Positions 21,626 to 36,235 of a stretch of DNA of 36,772 bases are shown here, in pieces (the stretch's first letter is position 1; each line of letters begins with the position of its first letter). The stretch lies in IMG/VR virus record IMGVR_UViG_3300020045_006747, positions 1 to 36,772 of that record. One strand, 5' to 3'. The stretch comes from a virus (lineage: Duplodnaviria; Caudoviricetes). The notes beneath the pieces were generated by a model. That model was not told the origin of the DNA, did not search any database, and worked only from the letters and a program-made list of their open reading frames with translations. The translations under genes were made by a program, and so were the position numbers.

Positions 21626-22057
21626 TCAAATCCTTGTAATTGTTCTCAATGCTGGCGATAACGCTGAAACGATACTGTCCTGTGGGGACCACACCACCGC
21701 CAACGATATTAACGTGGACAATTCGGTGGCTTCAGATATCGCAGCGTGATATTTCCCATCGATGAGGAATATCTCTTTCTGGACCCGAATCAGGAAATGG
21801 ATCGGCATATGCGCCCGCCATTTCCTGATGTATTGGTGTTGGGATGGCTCGACTTTGATCCTGTGAGTCGCGGACATCTTGACGTCAATAGCCTTCAGTT
21901 CCAACCATCCGACCCGGTGCGGGTCTTCGGCTTTCATAACATAATGAAGATCAGGTACCCCCGGAGAGATATGCCGATCTTCATGCCACGACATCATCCA
22001 CTCCCCGGCCATTGCGGGGCCGAGGAAATGCCGAAATCTAAGCTCTGCAGCATTCAT
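21626..22057 (-). CDS. PD-(D/E)XK nuclease (VRR-NUC/Holliday junction resolvase-like)
   Basis: PGVPDLHY...VGWLELKA...SQHQY. Confidence 0.78.
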   Translation of the reverse strand: MNAAELRFRHFLGPAMAGEWMMSWHEDRHISPGVPDLHYVMKAEDPHRVGWLELKAIDVKMSATHRIKVEPSQHQYIRKWRAHMPIHFLIRVQKEIFLIDGKYHAAISEATELSTLISLAVVWSPQDSIVSALSPALRTITRI

Positions 22058-22598
22058 GGCAGTATTTTTCCAGATTTTCTCGCACGTGATCAGTCAAATG
22101 AAGCGGCCACCCCAATTTCTGGGCATATCCAGCCAATTTATCGATCATCTGTTCGTAAATTGATTCATAGACTGCTTCCCCAGTGGCATCGGTAGCGTGT
22201 TTGTAAATATACCGCACAGCGTCAGCCATATCGCACAGCTTGATCAGCGCTTGTGTACTCGGATTGACAGGTACGATAAACACTGGATGGGTCACCGCCT
22301 TTTCGACTTCTTCCAGTCCAGTTAGATGTGCCTTCATGTGACTTGGGATGTCGCCCGTGAACACTTCAGCGATGTCGTGAACCAAAGCGGCAGCAGCGAC
22401 ATCAGACGACGGATCAAAGTAAAATACCGGGGCGGTCGACGCGATCAACATCGCCAATAGCGCCACGTTTGTTGTATGTGCCGCCAGAGACTGGTTGCCC
22501 GACGTCTCCATCATATGCCACCGAGTAACGGATTGCATCCGCAACACCGATTCCATTGCGTGATTCTCGGGTCCGTAGACCAAAAAGCTATTTAACAT
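22038..22598 (-). CDS. datZ: HD-domain dATP triphosphohydrolase
   Basis: YfbR-like HD motifs RWH...QSLAAHTTNV...ALVHDIAEVFTGDIPS.K...IKLCD. Adjacent to purZ and mazZ. Confidence 0.88.
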   Translation of the reverse strand: MLNSFLVYGPENHAMESVLRMQSVTRWHMMETSGNQSLAAHTTNVALLAMLIASTAPVFYFDPSSDVAAAALVHDIAEVFTGDIPSHMKAHLTGLEEVEKAVTHPVFIVPVNPSTQALIKLCDMADAVRYIYKHATDATGEAVYESIYEQMIDKLAGYAQKLGWPLHLTDHVRENLEKYCHECCRA

Positions 22599-22922: not shown

Positions 22923-23984
22923 TTATTTCCCGTAGACGGTCACTTGGGCGTCGTCAGCGCCCCAACCGATCCATTTGACCTTGGGGGGGTTGAGATAACC
23001 GGGGGCGGCGTCTTCGATCAGGCCGACGATATGAGCGACTTCTTCCTCATCCTTGCAGTAGTTAGCGAAATTCAAGAACACTTCGGTGTCCCAATATCCG
23101 CCACAATGGAACGCGGCGTCGATCATCTGCTTCTTGCTGAATGTGAAAATCCGGCGTTGGAGTTTGGTCACTGTTGTGACTTCAGGCTTGATGCCCATCG
23201 GCGCGAAATGGCTCCAATCCAGTTCCTCTTGATCATCGTAGCACGGGCCACTGGAACCAGTACGGTTATTGACCCGAATCGGGAAGCAGCGGGTCGATCC
23301 GATCACCTGGATGTACGACGCCCAATTGTAGGGTAGTCCGCAATCCGCAGCGATTTGCCACGGGGTCACATCACGGCTTGTGGTGTACGGATAAGACCCG
23401 TGGTAGAGCGAGAGGCTGAAACCTTGAGCGCCCTCAACGATGGTGCTTTCAGAGGCCATGATCGCATCGCGGTATTCACCGACAGTACAGACGTATTGGC
23501 CAAGCGGAGTACCCTTCCAACGAGAGCCAACCGTTACCGGATTATCTGGGTTGCGGCGAACCCGTTCGATCATAGCAGCGCCAACGCCATGGACGGTAGA
23601 CCCAATCTTGGCCATACCCCACTCAATTTCTTGGTCAGTGTGGTAATCCTCGATCGAAATGGCGTGAGGATGGACCATGATCCGCTTACCGACCAAGAAT
23701 TCACTGTATTTCTCGATCTCAGCGGCCAGTGTAGGACCATGAATCGCAGAACCGGGACCAATCAGAACCGTCTTGACTGTTGGGGAAGACAGGGCGCTGG
23801 TCGGAATTTGCTGCGTCATCACATGGATTCCACGGGATGAGTCAATGTAAGTATGACCCGCGTTAACGCTGAAAGCGCAAATTGCGGTATCATAGTCCTC
23901 CCACTTGGAGAGATGCCCGGCGATCAGACCTTTTCCAGTAGAGCCATACTGGAAGTCCATGATAAGGTGTACTTTATGTGTCAT
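22923..23984 (-). CDS. purZ: 2-amino-adenylosuccinate (N6-succino-2-amino-dAMP) synthetase
   Basis: PurA fold (NAGHT, IGST, EGAQG, YPYTTSR, PIRV) with PurZ-type changes: QYGSTGKG (Ser at the PurA catalytic Asp), TTVTKLQRR, and LNFANY in place of TKLD. The start at 23984 is ATGA-coupled to the polymerase stop. Confidence 0.95.
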   Translation of the reverse strand: MTHKVHLIMDFQYGSTGKGLIAGHLSKWEDYDTAICAFSVNAGHTYIDSSRGIHVMTQQIPTSALSSPTVKTVLIGPGSAIHGPTLAAEIEKYSEFLVGKRIMVHPHAISIEDYHTDQEIEWGMAKIGSTVHGVGAAMIERVRRNPDNPVTVGSRWKGTPLGQYVCTVGEYRDAIMASESTIVEGAQGFSLSLYHGSYPYTTSRDVTPWQIAADCGLPYNWASYIQVIGSTRCFPIRVNNRTGSSGPCYDDQEELDWSHFAPMGIKPEVTTVTKLQRRIFTFSKKQMIDAAFHCGGYWDTEVFLNFANYCKDEEEVAHIVGLIEDAAPGYLNPPKVKWIGWGADDAQVTVYGK

Positions 23985-25804
23985 TTCGAAGCCTCGTACC
24001 AATTAAGTCCATAATCTCCGCTTGCAGTAATTGGTACCCGCATTTGGACCACAGAATCTTCAGAATTGAAGTTCGTGTACTTTTCGATGATCCGGGATTT
24101 TACCGAATCATCCTGTTTCATACTCACCCCTGCCTCGTCATGACATGACATGAGCAGACGTGCGGGGAGCTTCTCGGTGCGGATCAAATCATCGATCGCC
24201 ACCAGCCCCAATTTGTGTAGATCGGCGGCATACGCCTGATAAAGAAGCCCAGCAGCTTTATGTGCGCCCAATGGGAACCTCAAGCGACGACCAATAGCGG
24301 TCCGGACAAATCCAGTCTCCTTGGCTACTGATTCTGCCCGCTTCATGAATTCTTTCACACCGGGTAATTTCTTGTGATAGAGATTAAAAATATCAGTCGC
24401 GGCTTGGCCCGGTACGTATTGCATTTTCCCACGTGATTCCTTGATGCCATACTCCATCCCCATCATAAACGCTAACTTGCCTGCCCCTGCACCAAAGGCA
24501 AGTCCAAGGTTGATTTGTTTGGTGTTTGGGGCACCCGCATATGGCGGGTTTCTCGGAATTCCGGTCATGCCCGACACGATCTGGTGGTAGTCCAATGTCG
24601 GGTCGTCCTGATACGCCTGAATCACCAGTGGATCGTTGATTAAGTGAGCCGCACATCTGAAGTCGACCTGTGAATAGTCGGTGCAGAGCCATTCTTCTCC
24701 GTCGTCGGGCAAGAACATAGCTCGGAGGATGGCCGCGTTAACCTTATCGCGTTTTGTGATCTGCTGTAACGCCGGATCTGTAGACGATAGACGGCCAGTA
24801 ACGGTGCCCGCATCAGCATCATTACGGGTTTGGTTGAACTGGGTATGTACGAACCCGTTCCCATCAGCACTTCCGATAACATGGCCTCGGATGAAGGTGT
24901 CGCGCAATTTGATGGTTTTACGAAGAGCCAATATTTTCGCAGCCAATGGATGGGTAATTTGCCGCATGACGTTCTGATCGAGCGATGGGCCTTTGCCGCC
25001 TTTAGTAGGCCCGACGAGCGTACCATCAATGAGCTTCCATTGGAATTTACTGATCGGCTCGGGCTTAAAGAACGCCCGGACTTGGGGGGACGAATTAACA
25101 TTGAATTTACCTCCAGCGATTTCGTTAATTTCTTTCTGAAGCTGTTCTTCTTGGATATCGAGCTTCGGGATGGCGGCGTGGGCGGCTTCGAGGTCGACCC
25201 GGACACCACCCCATGACATATCAGCCAAGACAGGGAGCAGTCTCATTTCGAGGTCGAGCACCTGCTGTAGTCCTTGTGACTTGATTTCTTTTGCCTGTGC
25301 CCGGTAGATTGCGAGGGCGTCCGCTGCGTCAGAGGCACCGTACGGGGCCACTATAGCGGGGGGCACCTCAGAGAGGCGGGAGAGTACCTCCCGACTATCT
25401 CGCCACCCCATCGCCGCACGGATCGACTCTAGGTGGACCAGCTTCTGGGAGTCGATGCCCCGATACTTGGCGATAGACGCCAGATCATAGGTCAGATGGT
25501 GTTCGTCAATGAGGCACTCAGCGACCATAGTACAATACCAAGATACCGACCGAGGGTCGATCTGGAAATGGCGAGTGCACTGGAATTCATATTGGGCGTT
25601 TTGGGCGACAACTGTACGTTGCGGCAGCAGGTCACGCAGCCAATCAACTACTTGCGGGTCAGAGCGAACATCCCAGTACCAAGAGTCAGCGCCGACAGCC
25701 ACAGCAATCCCAAACACACGAAAATCGGGGTCCCAATAACGCAGACCAGAAGTTTCATAATCAAGAGAAATGACTTCATTTTGGGGTATCTCTGGGAAGT
25801 TCAT
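23981..25804 (-). CDS. dpoZ: Family A DNA polymerase of the DpoZ type (3'-5' exonuclease + polymerase)
   Basis: Exo motifs LDYETSG, QNAQYE and YGASD. Polymerase motifs TGRLSS..P.LQQI, A DYSQVDFR, B KQINLGLAFG, AAGLLYQ and C MSCHDE. Coupled to purZ. Confidence 0.9.
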   Translation of the reverse strand: MNFPEIPQNEVISLDYETSGLRYWDPDFRVFGIAVAVGADSWYWDVRSDPQVVDWLRDLLPQRTVVAQNAQYEFQCTRHFQIDPRSVSWYCTMVAECLIDEHHLTYDLASIAKYRGIDSQKLVHLESIRAAMGWRDSREVLSRLSEVPPAIVAPYGASDAADALAIYRAQAKEIKSQGLQQVLDLEMRLLPVLADMSWGGVRVDLEAAHAAIPKLDIQEEQLQKEINEIAGGKFNVNSSPQVRAFFKPEPISKFQWKLIDGTLVGPTKGGKGPSLDQNVMRQITHPLAAKILALRKTIKLRDTFIRGHVIGSADGNGFVHTQFNQTRNDADAGTVTGRLSSTDPALQQITKRDKVNAAILRAMFLPDDGEEWLCTDYSQVDFRCAAHLINDPLVIQAYQDDPTLDYHQIVSGMTGIPRNPPYAGAPNTKQINLGLAFGAGAGKLAFMMGMEYGIKESRGKMQYVPGQAATDIFNLYHKKLPGVKEFMKRAESVAKETGFVRTAIGRRLRFPLGAHKAAGLLYQAYAADLHKLGLVAIDDLIRTEKLPARLLMSCHDEAGVSMKQDDSVKSRIIEKYTNFNSEDSVVQMRVPITASGDYGLNWYEASK

Positions 25805-32065: not shown

Positions 32066-32397
32066 GATTCCCACCCTTGAGTGAATGGGCCGATATGGAC
32101 TTCCGAGGTGGCGCTCCCCTCGCGCTCACGCCGAGCTTTCTCGACTTCATGTTCAATCTGGACCCGCAACGGCGAGAAAAGGCCAAGCGTCATGACGTCC
32201 ATGATCATATGGCACATGTTAGTGGAAATGACTGCAGACTTGTTGTCGGCGTTATCCGTGATCACGAGATTATGGATCATGTCCTTCACGAAGAAGCCCT
32301 TGTTCTTCATATCGGGCGTCTGGACATAACGAACATAGATGTAAGTACGTGGAGATTTGGTGAGTTCAATGACCACCGAGTATTCATTGAGTGCCAT
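32062..32397 (-). CDS. Hypothetical protein
   Basis: The start MALNEY is TAATG-coupled to the upstream gene. Confidence 0.6.
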   Translation of the reverse strand: MALNEYSVVIELTKSPRTYIYVRYVQTPDMKNKGFFVKDMIHNLVITDNADNKSAVISTNMCHMIMDVMTLGLFSPLRVQIEHEVEKARREREGSATSEVHIGPFTQGWES

Positions 32398-32813
32398 TAT
32401 TTGCCCCATCCTTTGTTAGGTATGTACCCCCATGCGTTCATGGCAGGCTGCATCTCTGCGGCCCCGAACGCCATCTTTGTCTGTGTGTCGCGCCACTCCT
32501 TTGCCTCTGTGACATCAACGTCGAGAGGTTCTGTTTGACGGGTCCCGGAGACACTCGCGGGTCCCGGAGCTATGTCAGCCCGGATCGGGGTCCCGGAGCG
32601 CAGTGGCGGTACTGCCGGAGTACCGGCGCGACCCATCGTCGGACTGACGTGATGACTGGTCAGGCGTGCGATCCGCGCCCGATTATACTCCACGAGGCAG
32701 CGTGCCTTGTCAAGGCTGTTTTCAGCCATCAGCATCTCATGTCGGGCTTCAAGTAGTTCTTGCTCGACCGCTTGTTCCAGCGTCGGATGCCTGAACAATT
32801 CAAAAAATTTCAT
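32397..32813 (-). CDS. Hypothetical protein
   Basis: N-terminal helical hairpin (ELLEARHEML...VEYNRARIARL) with a low-complexity tail. RBS AGGAG. Confidence 0.65.
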   Translation of the reverse strand: MKFFELFRHPTLEQAVEQELLEARHEMLMAENSLDKARCLVEYNRARIARLTSHHVSPTMGRAGTPAVPPLRSGTPIRADIAPGPASVSGTRQTEPLDVDVTEAKEWRDTQTKMAFGAAEMQPAMNAWGYIPNKGWGK

Positions 32814-32978
32814 GTGGTTCTCCTATCGGGCTATGAATCTTGCAGTGATGGTTCTCTTTGAGATTCCTTTCGGATTTTAACTCAGGCCACTGCTTGCGCT
32901 GACCTTTTTAAATCGAGAGCTACGGCATGTTAGGGCGGCAAACTCTGCATTGCTCTCGATTCACACCGCCCCAGAGTT
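32814..32978 (-). ncRNA. Candidate structured leader RNA with interleaved helices
   Basis: Complementary pairs: 32952-61/32911-20 (10 bp perfect), 32972-78/32941-47, 32966-71/32933-38, 32958-65/32832-39 and 32888-93/32842-47. GCAA and GAAA tetraloop hairpins are also present. Confidence 0.5.
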
Positions 32979-33970
32979 CAGGCTTCGGCGGCTTCTTCGG
33001 CAGGTACAGCCTTGGCAGCGGCTTTTGCTTCCTTAGCGGCTTTGTTGGCTGCTGCGGCTGCGGCACGAGCTTCACGCTTGGCCTGAGCTTTGGCTTCCCA
33101 GTCGGTCGCAGTAGCCAAGCCATTTGATTCGATGGTGGCCTTAATCACATCCATCGTCAGCGTGCCCTTCTTCAAGGCACCGCGCATCCGATTACGCAGA
33201 TTCATGCTTTGCTGACCAGAGTTCAACTGGCTGTAAGGATTGTGGTCCAGATCAAGCACGAGCTTGGCCAATTGAATCACATTGCCGACAGGCACAGCGT
33301 CGAGCACTTCGGCCAGTTCGTTGGTCGAGCGGAGTTGTCCGGTAGCGCCTTTCACATAAGCGCCTTGTTTGACACGGTCAGCCAGAGCCAGCATCGACCC
33401 GACGTATTTACGAGTGCCGTCGGGGTTCAGATTGGCGAGACGTTCGGCACGGGCGGCCTTCGCGGCTTCACGTTCTTCCTTGGTCATCTGATTCTTGGCT
33501 TGAATCGCTTTCAATTTGGCAGCATCCTTTTCGGCCTTCAGAGCAGCAGCGGCTTTCAGCTTGGCGGCTTTGGCTTCAGCTTTCGCGGCATCCTTTTCGG
33601 CTTTCAGAGCAGCTTTCTTGGCTTCGCGCTCCTGTTTGGCCAGTTCTTTGTTCGACAGGACAGGCTTGGGCATGGGGTTCAGCGTTTCGGTGTAGCCGTC
33701 TTCGTTGACTTCAGTCATGGTGACTTCCTCAGTGGTTGGTTGATTGGACCCCGATTCTACGGCAACGGGAGTGTCGGTGTCAATGGGGTTGGCGGCGGCA
33801 TTCATAGTGCCTTCATTTTTCGGGCTTTTCCGTGGGGCGCGTTCATTTTTCGGGCTTTTCCGTGGGGCGCGTTCATTTTTCATGGGGTCTTCCTTTAGGA
33901 TACTGATAGCTGATTGGAGGAGGAGGTCCGAATATGCATCCGGACCCCATTTGGGATTAGACTGGCTCAT
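32978..33970 (-). CDS. Ala/Lys-rich early protein with an LNxGQQSMNLRN domain
   Basis: Histone-like AK repeats flank a ~80-aa domain paralogous to 35522-36235. ATGA-coupled to the upstream gene. Confidence 0.7.
   Translation of the reverse strand: MSQSNPKWGPDAYSDLLLQSAISILKEDPMKNERAPRKSPKNERAPRKSPKNEGTMNAAANPIDTDTPVAVESGSNQPTTEEVTMTEVNEDGYTETLNPMPKPVLSNKELAKQEREAKKAALKAEKDAAKAEAKAAKLKAAAALKAEKDAAKLKAIQAKNQMTKEEREAAKAARAERLANLNPDGTRKYVGSMLALADRVKQGAYVKGATGQLRSTNELAEVLDAVPVGNVIQLAKLVLDLDHNPYSQLNSGQQSMNLRNRMRGALKKGTLTMDVIKATIESNGLATATDWEAKAQAKREARAAAAAANKAAKEAKAAAKAVPAEEAAEA
33812..33881. repeat. 30-bp tandem repeat (2.3 copies), in frame
   Basis: Unit TTCATTTTTCGGGCTTTTCCGTGGGGCGCG, encoding KNERAPRKSP twice. 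Confidence 0.9.
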
Positions 33971-35448: not shown

Positions 35449-35521
35449 GTGAACTCCTATAAACTATGGTTGATCGAGCAATACGCTCCGAATGCTGCCT
35501 GTCACACGGCATTCAGCGGGT

Positions 35522-36235
35522 TCATGCTTGGTCGTCGAAGAGGGTTTCGTCATTCATGCCGGTCGAGCACTCGTCCATGGGGATCGTCGTACCGGGACGA
35601 AAGCCAGCATCAGCCTTGGCTTGACTCTTCGCGTCTGTCTCCAGTACGACTTCAACTGCTTCAACCACGACGCCCATCCCGAACTCACCACGCTTCATGC
35701 AGCCGCGCAACTTATTGCGCAGATTCATGCTTTGCTGGCCGATGTTGAGATGCGTGTAAGGGTTGTTCGGCAGATTCATCGCGATGATGCAAGCCCGGAT
35801 CACTTGAGCGGGTGTCAGGCTTCCGAGCGCGACCGCGATCTCATCACCACAGCAGGGCTGGCCGTTCGGCGCTTTCTTATATGCGCCAGCTGCCAAGCGT
35901 TCACGCAGGGCAAGCATAGGGCCAACATAGCCGACAGGCATCAACGCAACGTGGGCGTCTTCGGGTGTCGTGTCGAGTTCAGCTGCGACCTGTTCGATGA
36001 AGGTCTGCTCCGGACCTGCTGCGGCCTCTTCGTTCGTGGGCGCACGGTCAATACCCGCTTCAAGCTCGTCGGCGTGCTGTTCGTTATAGTCGGCGCGACA
36101 GGCGAATGCTTCGCCACGGCTGATGCTTGCGCCATTCGAGAGCTTGACCCAGCGACCCTTGATGGTCGTGATCGTGACTGTCGCGCCAGCGATCGTGAGC
36201 ATCTGGCCGATTTCGAGTGTGGGTGTCGTGTTCAT
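35522..36235 (-). CDS. First early gene: acidic protein with an LNxGQQSMNLRN domain
   Basis: N-terminal small beta domain and acidic linker, then YVGPMLAL...NPYTHLNIGQQSMNLRNKLRG. RBS AGGA. Confidence 0.7.
   Translation of the reverse strand: MNTTPTLEIGQMLTIAGATVTITTIKGRWVKLSNGASISRGEAFACRADYNEQHADELEAGIDRAPTNEEAAAGPEQTFIEQVAAELDTTPEDAHVALMPVGYVGPMLALRERLAAGAYKKAPNGQPCCGDEIAVALGSLTPAQVIRACIIAMNLPNNPYTHLNIGQQSMNLRNKLRGCMKRGEFGMGVVVEAVEVVLETDAKSQAKADAGFRPGTTIPMDECSTGMNDETLFDDQA

What the first reader, a model, noticed from the sequence alone, without database searches (positions are those of the whole stretch)
32814..32978. Dense multi-state RNA structure, a possible switch, in a 165-nt early-operon leader
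Seen on the minus strand, in the order A-B-C-A'-B'-C': AACUCUG/CAGAGUU, GGGCGG/CCGCCC (extendable by G-U pairs) and AAUCGAGAGC/GCUCUCGAUU. Next come an AGGUCA-GC-GCAA-GC-AG-UGGCCU hairpin, a UCC-GAAA-GGA hairpin and a competing GCAGUGG/UCACUGC helix. Finally, a long-range GGGC..UGUGAAUC/GAUUCAUA-GCCC helix ends about 3 nt before the AGGAG RBS. A and B cannot coexist sterically, B and C form a pseudoknot, and the long-range helix competes with both. The G-U pairs favour the coding strand. I cannot match this to a tRNA, to HDV, hammerhead or pistol ribozymes, or to a c-di-GMP riboswitch. Inference: an undescribed riboswitch-like, timer or processing element that gates the downstream early and helicase genes.
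Basis: partly seen in the sequence, partly recalled or inferred. Interest (0 to 1): 0.72.

Follow-up and report, generated by a model that had tools for sequence, protein, structure and literature searches.

The report
Swappable knotted RNAs in Z-phage messages
The 165 bases between two early genes of an uncultured phage with Z-base (2-aminoadenine) DNA genes hold two uncatalogued RNA modules, predicted to fold as pseudoknots, whose base pairs are kept in a few related phages; they likely shield the message from RNA-cutting enzymes rather than act as a switch, but no function has been tested.

Summary
The helices are real and exceed chance: 0 of 3000 shuffles reach the A-B-C-A'-B'-C' pairing. 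No Rfam family matches. The spacer is two modules. Module 1 (32980-32909) has three mutually crossing helices. One homologue (L155) keeps all three with compensatory changes, and a rough 3D model lets them coexist, so it looks like one compact fold, not alternative states. Module 2 (32905-32842) is a branched H-type pseudoknot, also found in L155 (twice), L160 and perhaps L179. The 'RBS-gating' long-range helix is not conserved: its 3' strand is a phage-wide ribosome-binding motif. In about 40 related Z-phage loci this slot holds a plain hairpin or other, unrelated pseudoknots, ahead of unrelated genes. That argues against a gene-specific riboswitch. Best reading (0.4): constitutive, interchangeable barriers to mRNA decay, like pseudoknots that block RNase E scanning (PMC9943677). 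Rivals are an anti-defence decoy RNA, a protein-binding operator, a new ribozyme and a switch. Only 2 and 4-5 copies support the two modules, and nothing shows expression.

The parts
32909..32980 (-). Module 1: three mutually crossing helices A-B-C-A'-B'-C' (pseudotrefoil order), starting in the stop codon of the upstream gene
   Evidence: homologue L155; coarse model
32939..32980 (-). Helix A: 32980/32978-32972 with 32947-32941/32939; a 4-pair core is kept in L155
   Evidence: of 7 pairs, 3 same, 1 changed on both sides, 3 broken in L155
32931..32973 (-). Helix B: 32973-32964 with 32940-32931 (6 WC core, 10 with G-U)
   Evidence: 8 of 8 compared pairs kept in L155, 3 changed on both sides, 1 on one side (hand register, one extra pair in L155)
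32909..32963 (-). Helix C: 32963-32952 with 32920-32909 (10 WC core)
   Evidence: 9 of 10 pairs kept in L155, 3 changed on both sides, 3 to G-U; pair probability 0.95
32842..32905 (-). Module 2: branched H-type pseudoknot. P1 32905-32901 with 32888-32884; loop strand 32893-32889 pairs with 32846-32842; P2 32884-32881 with 32862-32859 holding the GAAA hairpin 32874-32865; then AAGA 32858-32855
   Evidence: window, L160, two copies in L155, tentatively L179
32820..32835 (-).
   Evidence: 4 sites in window; 36 of 41 spacers
32978..33970 (-). Upstream Ala/Lys-rich gene of unknown function; likely true start near 33718, behind a sigma-70 promoter inside the annotated frame
33754..33783 (-). Sigma-70-type promoter (11 of 12 matches), likely source of the transcript that carries the modules
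32397..32813 (-). Downstream 138-aa gene of unknown function; its homologues in L129 and L132 lack the modules

Best explanation
The spacer holds two separate RNA modules whose helices are kept in related phages, and they likely fold constitutively into compact pseudoknots that would act as roadblocks to mRNA decay rather than as a switch. Shown: the helices, their crossing order, their conservation with compensatory changes in a few homologues, and that the same slot in related Z-phages holds either a plain GC-rich hairpin or other pseudoknots ahead of unrelated genes. Inferred: the early transcript from the promoter at 33783 runs through the Ala/Lys-rich gene into the spacer; module 1 folds as one three-helix unit and module 2 as a branched H-type pseudoknot. 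After any upstream cut, these coaxial structures would stop RNase E scanning into the downstream cistrons, and they would also hinder 3'-5' exonucleases nibbling back into the upstream gene. Because such a job depends on shape and not on sequence, modules can be gained, lost and exchanged.
For: Crossing triple above chance. Homologue L155 keeps A, B and C (23 of 24 pairs in its own register). Coarse model: A+B+C unknotted, largest bond strain 0.48 A (window) and 0.42 A (L155), against 0.34 A for a classic pseudoknot and 3.6 A for an impossible control. Slot interchange: 26 of 41 spacers end in a standard GC-rich hairpin; other spacers hold unrelated covarying pseudoknots (43 of 44 cells paired, 4 pairs changed on both sides; 87 of 87 cells, 6 pairs). 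Modules start in or at the stop codon (window) or about 8 nt after a -10 box, at the predicted +1 (L155: -10 ends 3494, helix A starts 3502; L153: 3500 and 3508). Downstream genes of module holders are unrelated. In E. coli, pseudoknots, including a branched SARS-CoV-2 one, block RNase E scanning in proportion to their coaxial pairs, and stem-loops do not (PMC9943677, passages).
Against: No expression or stability data. Module 1 rests on 2 sequences and module 2 on 4-5 copies in 3-4 genomes; further scans found no more. By a strict Watson-Crick test the window's own module-2 pseudoknot is no better than shuffles (60 of 100), and only 6 of 20 long spacers pass at 5 of 100 or fewer. Unpaired-looking sequence is conserved (the 14-nt P1 loop region in 3 copies; 14 of 19 linker bases in module 1), more than a pure shape barrier needs; that fits a binding partner or recent exchange. 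Most relatives do without the modules. The host, and so its nucleases, is not known. The 3D model uses recalled helix geometry, three beads per base and 22 starts.
Confidence: 0.4

Rival explanations
1. Anti-defence decoy RNAs: the modules are cut out at their A-rich linkers and bind a host immune protein (as pseudo-ToxI of phage phiTE binds ToxN) or another host factor; the slot is a variable cassette like other early anti-defence genes.
For: Fast turnover of unrelated folds in one early slot; own promoter in L153 and L155; A-rich linkers between modules; conserved loop sequence; precedent in PMC3475682 (abstract); a sibling module also occurs in unrelated viral contigs.
Against: No tandem near-identical repeats; no match to ToxI or CRISPR-repeat families in Rfam at E up to 10; no terminator to release a discrete RNA in the window; modules of 64-72 nt are larger than ToxI units (recalled: about 35 nt).
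Confidence: 0.2
2. Protein-binding operator or translation enhancer: a phage protein (for example the upstream Ala/Lys-rich protein) or ribosomal protein S1 binds the pseudoknots and tunes translation of the next gene, as with the T4 gene 32 leader pseudoknot.
For: Pseudoknots lie 15-90 nt upstream of a ribosome-binding site; T4/T2 gene 32 precedent (PMC3014915, passages); the upstream protein is basic and helical.
Against: Downstream genes differ between module holders; the modules follow, not precede, the Ala/Lys gene; unrelated folds fill the slot, which one protein is unlikely to read; no RNA-binding fold found.
Confidence: 0.15
3. Neutral or weakly selected elaboration: the helices exist but do nothing beyond what a simple hairpin does.
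For: Most relatives have a single hairpin (26 of 41); nested energy ordinary; few homologues.
Against: Compensatory changes in three crossing helices between diverged phages and in two sibling modules are hard to keep without selection.
Confidence: 0.1
4. A new class of small self-cleaving ribozyme that cuts the early message between genes.
For: Compact multi-pseudoknot folds of ribozyme size between genes; conserved linker bases. Ribozyme classes can replace each other at one site (recalled).
Against: No known ribozyme in the window, in 26 related loci or in 136 kb of related contigs; each module has its own fold with no shared core; cutting at +1 of a promoter (L153, L155) would serve little.
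Confidence: 0.08
5. Riboswitch or folding timer: ligand or kinetics choose between A/B/C and the long-range helix, and so gate the ribosome-binding site of the early and helicase genes.
For: The long-range helix can form (-12.7 kcal/mol alone; a fold forced to contain it reaches -45.0 against -47.1 kcal/mol); A and B overlap by two bases.
Against: The helix is absent from L155 and L160 and uses the generic RBS motif; it leaves AGGAG outside; B, which nested folding cannot count together with C, takes the same G-run; no link to one gene or to purZ, which lies 9 kb away.
Confidence: 0.07

Closest known systems
Pseudoknots as obstacles to RNase E scanning (VPK, BWYV, telomerase and branched SARS-CoV-2 pseudoknots in E. 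coli reporters; PMC9943677)
   Same: Coaxial pseudoknots in an untranslated region upstream of a gene; module 2 has the same plan as the branched type, with a hairpin in the last loop.
   Different: Those were foreign RNAs placed in reporters; here they are natural, phage-encoded and interchangeable, module 1 has three crossing helices, and protection is untested.
T4/T2/RB69 gene 32 leader pseudoknot (PMC3014915)
   Same: A phage mRNA pseudoknot upstream of a ribosome-binding site, present in some relatives and absent in others (RB49).
   Different: That is a simple H-type operator for the gene it precedes (ssDNA-binding protein). Here the downstream gene varies and the folds are larger.
Pseudo-ToxI repeats of phage phiTE (PMC3475682)
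   Same: Phage non-coding RNA with pseudoknot character and variable content.
   Different: No tandem repeats and no ToxI similarity here.
ABCABC 'pseudotrefoil' class of RNA topology (PMC3390330)
   Same: Module 1 has this order; its 72 nt match the class mean of 73.6 nt.
   Different: The class is rare (51 records against 1688 H-type and 365 kissing hairpins). The passages read did not name its members, and no Rfam family matches this one.

Membership tests
Any Rfam 15 family (riboswitches; hammerhead, HDV, twister, twister-sister, pistol, hatchet ribozymes; ToxI; CRISPR repeats) | Covariance-model match at the gathering score | tested here: not met
   0 in the window; 4 matches at 12-13 bits, far below gathering; none in the related spacers
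Riboswitch | Consistent association with genes of one pathway | tested here: not met
   unrelated downstream genes; the same gene occurs without the module in L129 and L132
Riboswitch | Conserved expression platform (terminator or RBS-sequestering helix) | tested here: not met
   no terminator; long-range helix not conserved and outside AGGAG
Riboswitch | Ligand binding | not testable with these tools
   needs in-line probing
Self-cleaving ribozyme | Site-specific self-cleavage | not testable with these tools
   needs an in vitro assay
Type III antitoxin mimic (pseudo-ToxI) | Tandem near-identical pseudoknot repeats similar to an antitoxin | tested here: not met
   only short 2-copy repeats
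Gene 32-type autogenous operator | Pseudoknot fixed upstream of the gene whose product binds it | tested here: not met
RNase E-blocking pseudoknot | Base pairing coaxial with the RNA path (pseudoknot, not stem-loop) upstream of coding sequence | tested here: met
   (by sequence comparison; fold not probed)
RNase E-blocking pseudoknot | Protection of downstream cleavage sites in cells | not testable with these tools
   needs the reporter of PMC9943677
ABCABC pseudotrefoil | Three mutually crossing helices formed at the same time | tested here: inconclusive
   all three kept in 2 of 2 copies and sterically possible in a coarse model; coexistence not measured
Z-genome (PurZ/DatZ) podophage | purZ, datZ and a family A polymerase | tested here: met
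   purZ in 10 of 10 relatives at least 90% complete (23 of 45 overall)

The most novel reading that the evidence does not exclude
Module 1 is a natural, free-standing pseudotrefoil: three helices that lock into one compact body. Z-phages and other phages trade a repertoire of such small knotted RNAs in one early slot as a fast-evolving RNA armoury that blocks host nucleases or decoys host defence proteins.
Probability: 0.2. Interest if true: 0.8.

Novelty: new variant of a known kind. Interest (0 to 1): 0.5.

Why it matters
If confirmed, it gives a 72-nt natural example of a rare RNA topology, small enough for crystallography or cryo-EM, and a natural test of whether phages use pseudoknots to protect early messages from RNase E, so far seen in the passages read only with engineered reporters. 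The slot yields several further uncatalogued, covarying pseudoknot motifs, one of which recurs in unrelated viral contigs. Such modules could serve as portable mRNA or guide-RNA stabilisers. Interest is tempered because few homologues support this element, the switch idea fails, and earlier notes of this scan describe similar modules in other phages.

Tried and rejected
BLASTN of the spacer against 50,697 phage records: only 3 chance matches at E 0.8. The full upstream protein found nothing there, and its core one weak hit. Rfam: nothing. No tRNA or tmRNA. Sequencing runs: none was listed, which is no evidence either way. DNA-pattern scans of IMG/VR for more copies gave only the known loci or chance matches: 119 loci, no nhmmer hit; 2: L155 and L160 contigs; 11, only L155 real; 119 listed of about 200, only L160 real; 9, only L155 real. 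A covariance model of module 2 found only its training sequences in 1.14 Mb, and missed the L155a copy. A generic crossing-triple scan was too unspecific. MAFFT misaligned the 5' half of module 1, so its register was set by hand on shared anchors. The module-1 counts and the S1 counts had index errors and were redone; the P2 register was off by one, so its energy rows with P2 are not used. The first 3D script timed out. Stop-codon readthrough: rejected, since an in-frame stop follows after 15 codons, L126 has two stops in a row, and L153 and L155 have a promoter between stop and module. A six-codon mini-frame inside module 1 (32950-32930) lacks its ATG in L155. Whether module holders lack purZ could not be tested, as the L155 and L160 contigs end before that region. 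The upstream protein has no Pfam or PDB match.

Full report
Context. The window is a 36.8-kb virus record of a podophage with purZ (22923-24002), datZ (22038-22598) and a family A polymerase; the best purZ matches among annotated phages are Vibrio, Acinetobacter and Klebsiella phages at about 44%. The finding is the minus-strand spacer between an Ala/Lys-rich gene (frame 32978-33970) and a 138-aa gene (32397-32813). A sigma-70-type promoter at 33783-33754 lies inside the annotated frame, so the upstream gene probably starts near 33718 (inference). The spacer itself has no promoter or terminator match. It is therefore an intercistronic region, not a 5' leader.

Observation. The best crossing triple has 22 Watson-Crick pairs; 0 of 3000 dinucleotide shuffles reach it, and the site is first of 916 genome windows. 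Nested folding energy is ordinary (z -0.53). A looser scan of 1.17 Mb gave 403 triples, with the window 7th, so the topology needs support from homologues. Rfam has no match.

Homologues. The core of the upstream protein gave 3, 23, 54 and 3 loci from four scans; the family has at least 204 members in the protein database. purZ is present in 10 of 10 records at least 90% complete (23 of 45 in all). I chose by eye 41 spacers behind orthologue-like genes, the window and some near-duplicates included. They are 59 to 350 nt long; 26 hold a standard GC-rich hairpin and 36 end in the ATAG-N-ATAG(GA) motif. nhmmer with the window's spacer hit L155 (E 0.0017 and 0.047) and L160 (E 0.068). These show that the spacer is two modules.

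Module 1 (32980-32909). L155 has the same order A-B-C-A'-B'-C', the same central linker (14 of 19 bases) and the same A-rich 3' flank. In a hand-set register on these anchors, helix C keeps 9 of 10 pairs (3 changed on both sides, 3 to G-U, 3 same); helix B keeps 8 of 8 compared (3 on both sides, 1 on one side); helix A keeps a 4-pair core (1 on both sides) and loses 3. All one-sided changes give G-U on this strand, which supports the transcript strand. 23 of 24 positions pair in L155 and 0 of 200,000 shuffles of its 5' half reach that; the register came from the same sequence, so this figure is inflated. A three-bead model with recalled A-form geometry found unknotted arrangements of all three helices with largest bond strain 0.48 A (window) and 0.42 A (L155) in 22 starts each, against 0.34 A for a classic H-type control and 3.6 A for an impossible control. 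This is rough, but it does not support the claim that A and B exclude each other. The ABCABC order is the rare 'pseudotrefoil' class: 51 records against 1688 H-type in RNA STRAND (PMC3390330, passages and first part of the Discussion).

Module 2 (32905-32842). A P1 hairpin, whose loop pairs with a strand beyond a second hairpin P2 and an AAGA run, forms a branched H-type pseudoknot. The same plan holds in L160 (9-pair pseudoknot helix, 8-pair P2), in two copies in L155 and tentatively in L179 (hand-assigned). Against: under a strict Watson-Crick test the window's copy is matched by 60 of 100 shuffles, L160's by 1 of 100; 6 of 20 long spacers pass at 5 or fewer. A covariance model and four further pattern scans found no new copies.

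The long-range helix. It can form, but in the nested ensemble its two parts have probability 0.10 and 0.40, against 0.95 for C and 0.89 for P1, and helix B uses the same G-run. It stops 3 nt before AGGAG. Its 3' strand is the ATAG-N-ATAGGA motif seen at 4 genes in this window; the same 14 letters follow bare promoters in three other contigs. L160 has no module 1, and L155 has no such helix in its list. I take it as chance.

The slot. Other relatives carry unrelated pseudoknots here. One H-type motif in L124, L128, L130 and L153 has 43 of 44 cells paired and 4 pairs changed on both sides. A two-part motif in L126, L140 and L201 has 87 of 87 cells paired and 6 such pairs. The first also appears in 5 of the 20 other viral loci that matched its pattern, with helices the pattern did not ask for (L419, L422, L430, L431, L435). 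None matches Rfam. Genes behind the modules are unrelated to each other, and the two tblastn homologues of the window's downstream gene have only a hairpin. In L155 and L153 a sigma-70 promoter sits between stop codon and module, and the first helix begins 8 nt after the -10 box, which is about where +1 would be (established knowledge).

Mechanism. Sequence-unrelated pseudoknots that replace one another and a plain hairpin, at the 5' end of a transcript or right behind a stop codon, fit a shape-dependent job. In E. coli, pseudoknots of 8-15 coaxial pairs, including a branched SARS-CoV-2 one, protect downstream sites from RNase E scanning while stem-loops do not (PMC9943677, passages). I give a constitutive decay barrier 0.4, a decoy against host defence 0.2 (precedent PMC3475682, abstract), a protein-binding operator 0.15 (T4 gene 32, PMC3014915, passages), neutral 0.1, a new ribozyme 0.08 and a riboswitch or timer 0.07. 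Conserved loop sequence is the main point that a pure barrier does not explain. The host is unknown, and expression is not shown.

Novelty. Ten paper searches (listings only unless cited above) found no description of this element or of structured RNAs in Z-phages. The library lacks most subscription papers. The survey of over ten thousand candidate viral RNAs (PMC10690425) could hold it: its alignment archives and PDFs could not be opened, and the spreadsheets and document that could be searched had no match to my terms. Earlier notes of this scan report similar pseudoknot modules behind early-gene stop codons in other phages; they are unchecked leads, not support. Verdict: a real, uncatalogued pair of folded RNA modules, one with a rare three-helix topology; not the switch proposed; function untested. 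Interest 0.5.

Noticed in passing
L124:930-980, L128:1617-1668, L130:3495-3540, L153:3536-3583; L419, L422, L430, L431, L435: Uncatalogued 40-50 nt H-type pseudoknot with an invariant UCUU first loop and a purine run in the second stem (possible triple helix); covaries, and recurs in unrelated viral contigs of 4.7 to 331 kb.
   Followed up: partly
L126:1130-1270, L140:2067-2205, L201:3865-4005: Two-part motif (interlocked hairpins plus a branched pseudoknot) ahead of the standard hairpin; fully paired with 6 compensatory pairs in 3 sequences.
   Followed up: partly
window 35467, 34794, 32834, 28268 (minus strand): Clade-wide ATAG-N2-7-ATAGGA motif before early genes; the upstream ATAG copy is conserved beyond the Shine-Dalgarno sequence and may be a translation enhancer.
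   Followed up: partly
window 32978-33970 and 35522-36235: Two paralogous genes share a conserved NPY..LN.GQQSMNLRN domain with no Pfam or PDB match; fold relatives occur in Vibrio phage JSF9 and Alteromonas phage ZP6, so it may be a marker of Z-podophages.
   Followed up: partly
window 35466-35525 (minus strand): The paralogous gene is also followed by hairpins before the next ribosome-binding site, as in several relatives.
   Followed up: no
window 33813-33882 (minus strand): A 30-nt tandem repeat just upstream of the promoter at 33783; the frame's first 80 or so codons are probably not coding.
   Followed up: no
L153:3465-3485, L183, L193, L194 spacers: The -35 box of several early promoters sits inside a GC-rich inverted repeat, which could be an operator or a hairpin ending the upstream message.
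   Followed up: no
L262 (G032), near 980 and 1341, minus strand: A GC-rich element with crossing helices is repeated in several spacers of this contig.
   Followed up: no
L159:3448-3656, L162:3586-3729, L163:3529-3700, L179:3340-3540: Further long, structured spacers in the same slot, each different; not analysed for covariation for want of copies.
   Followed up: no
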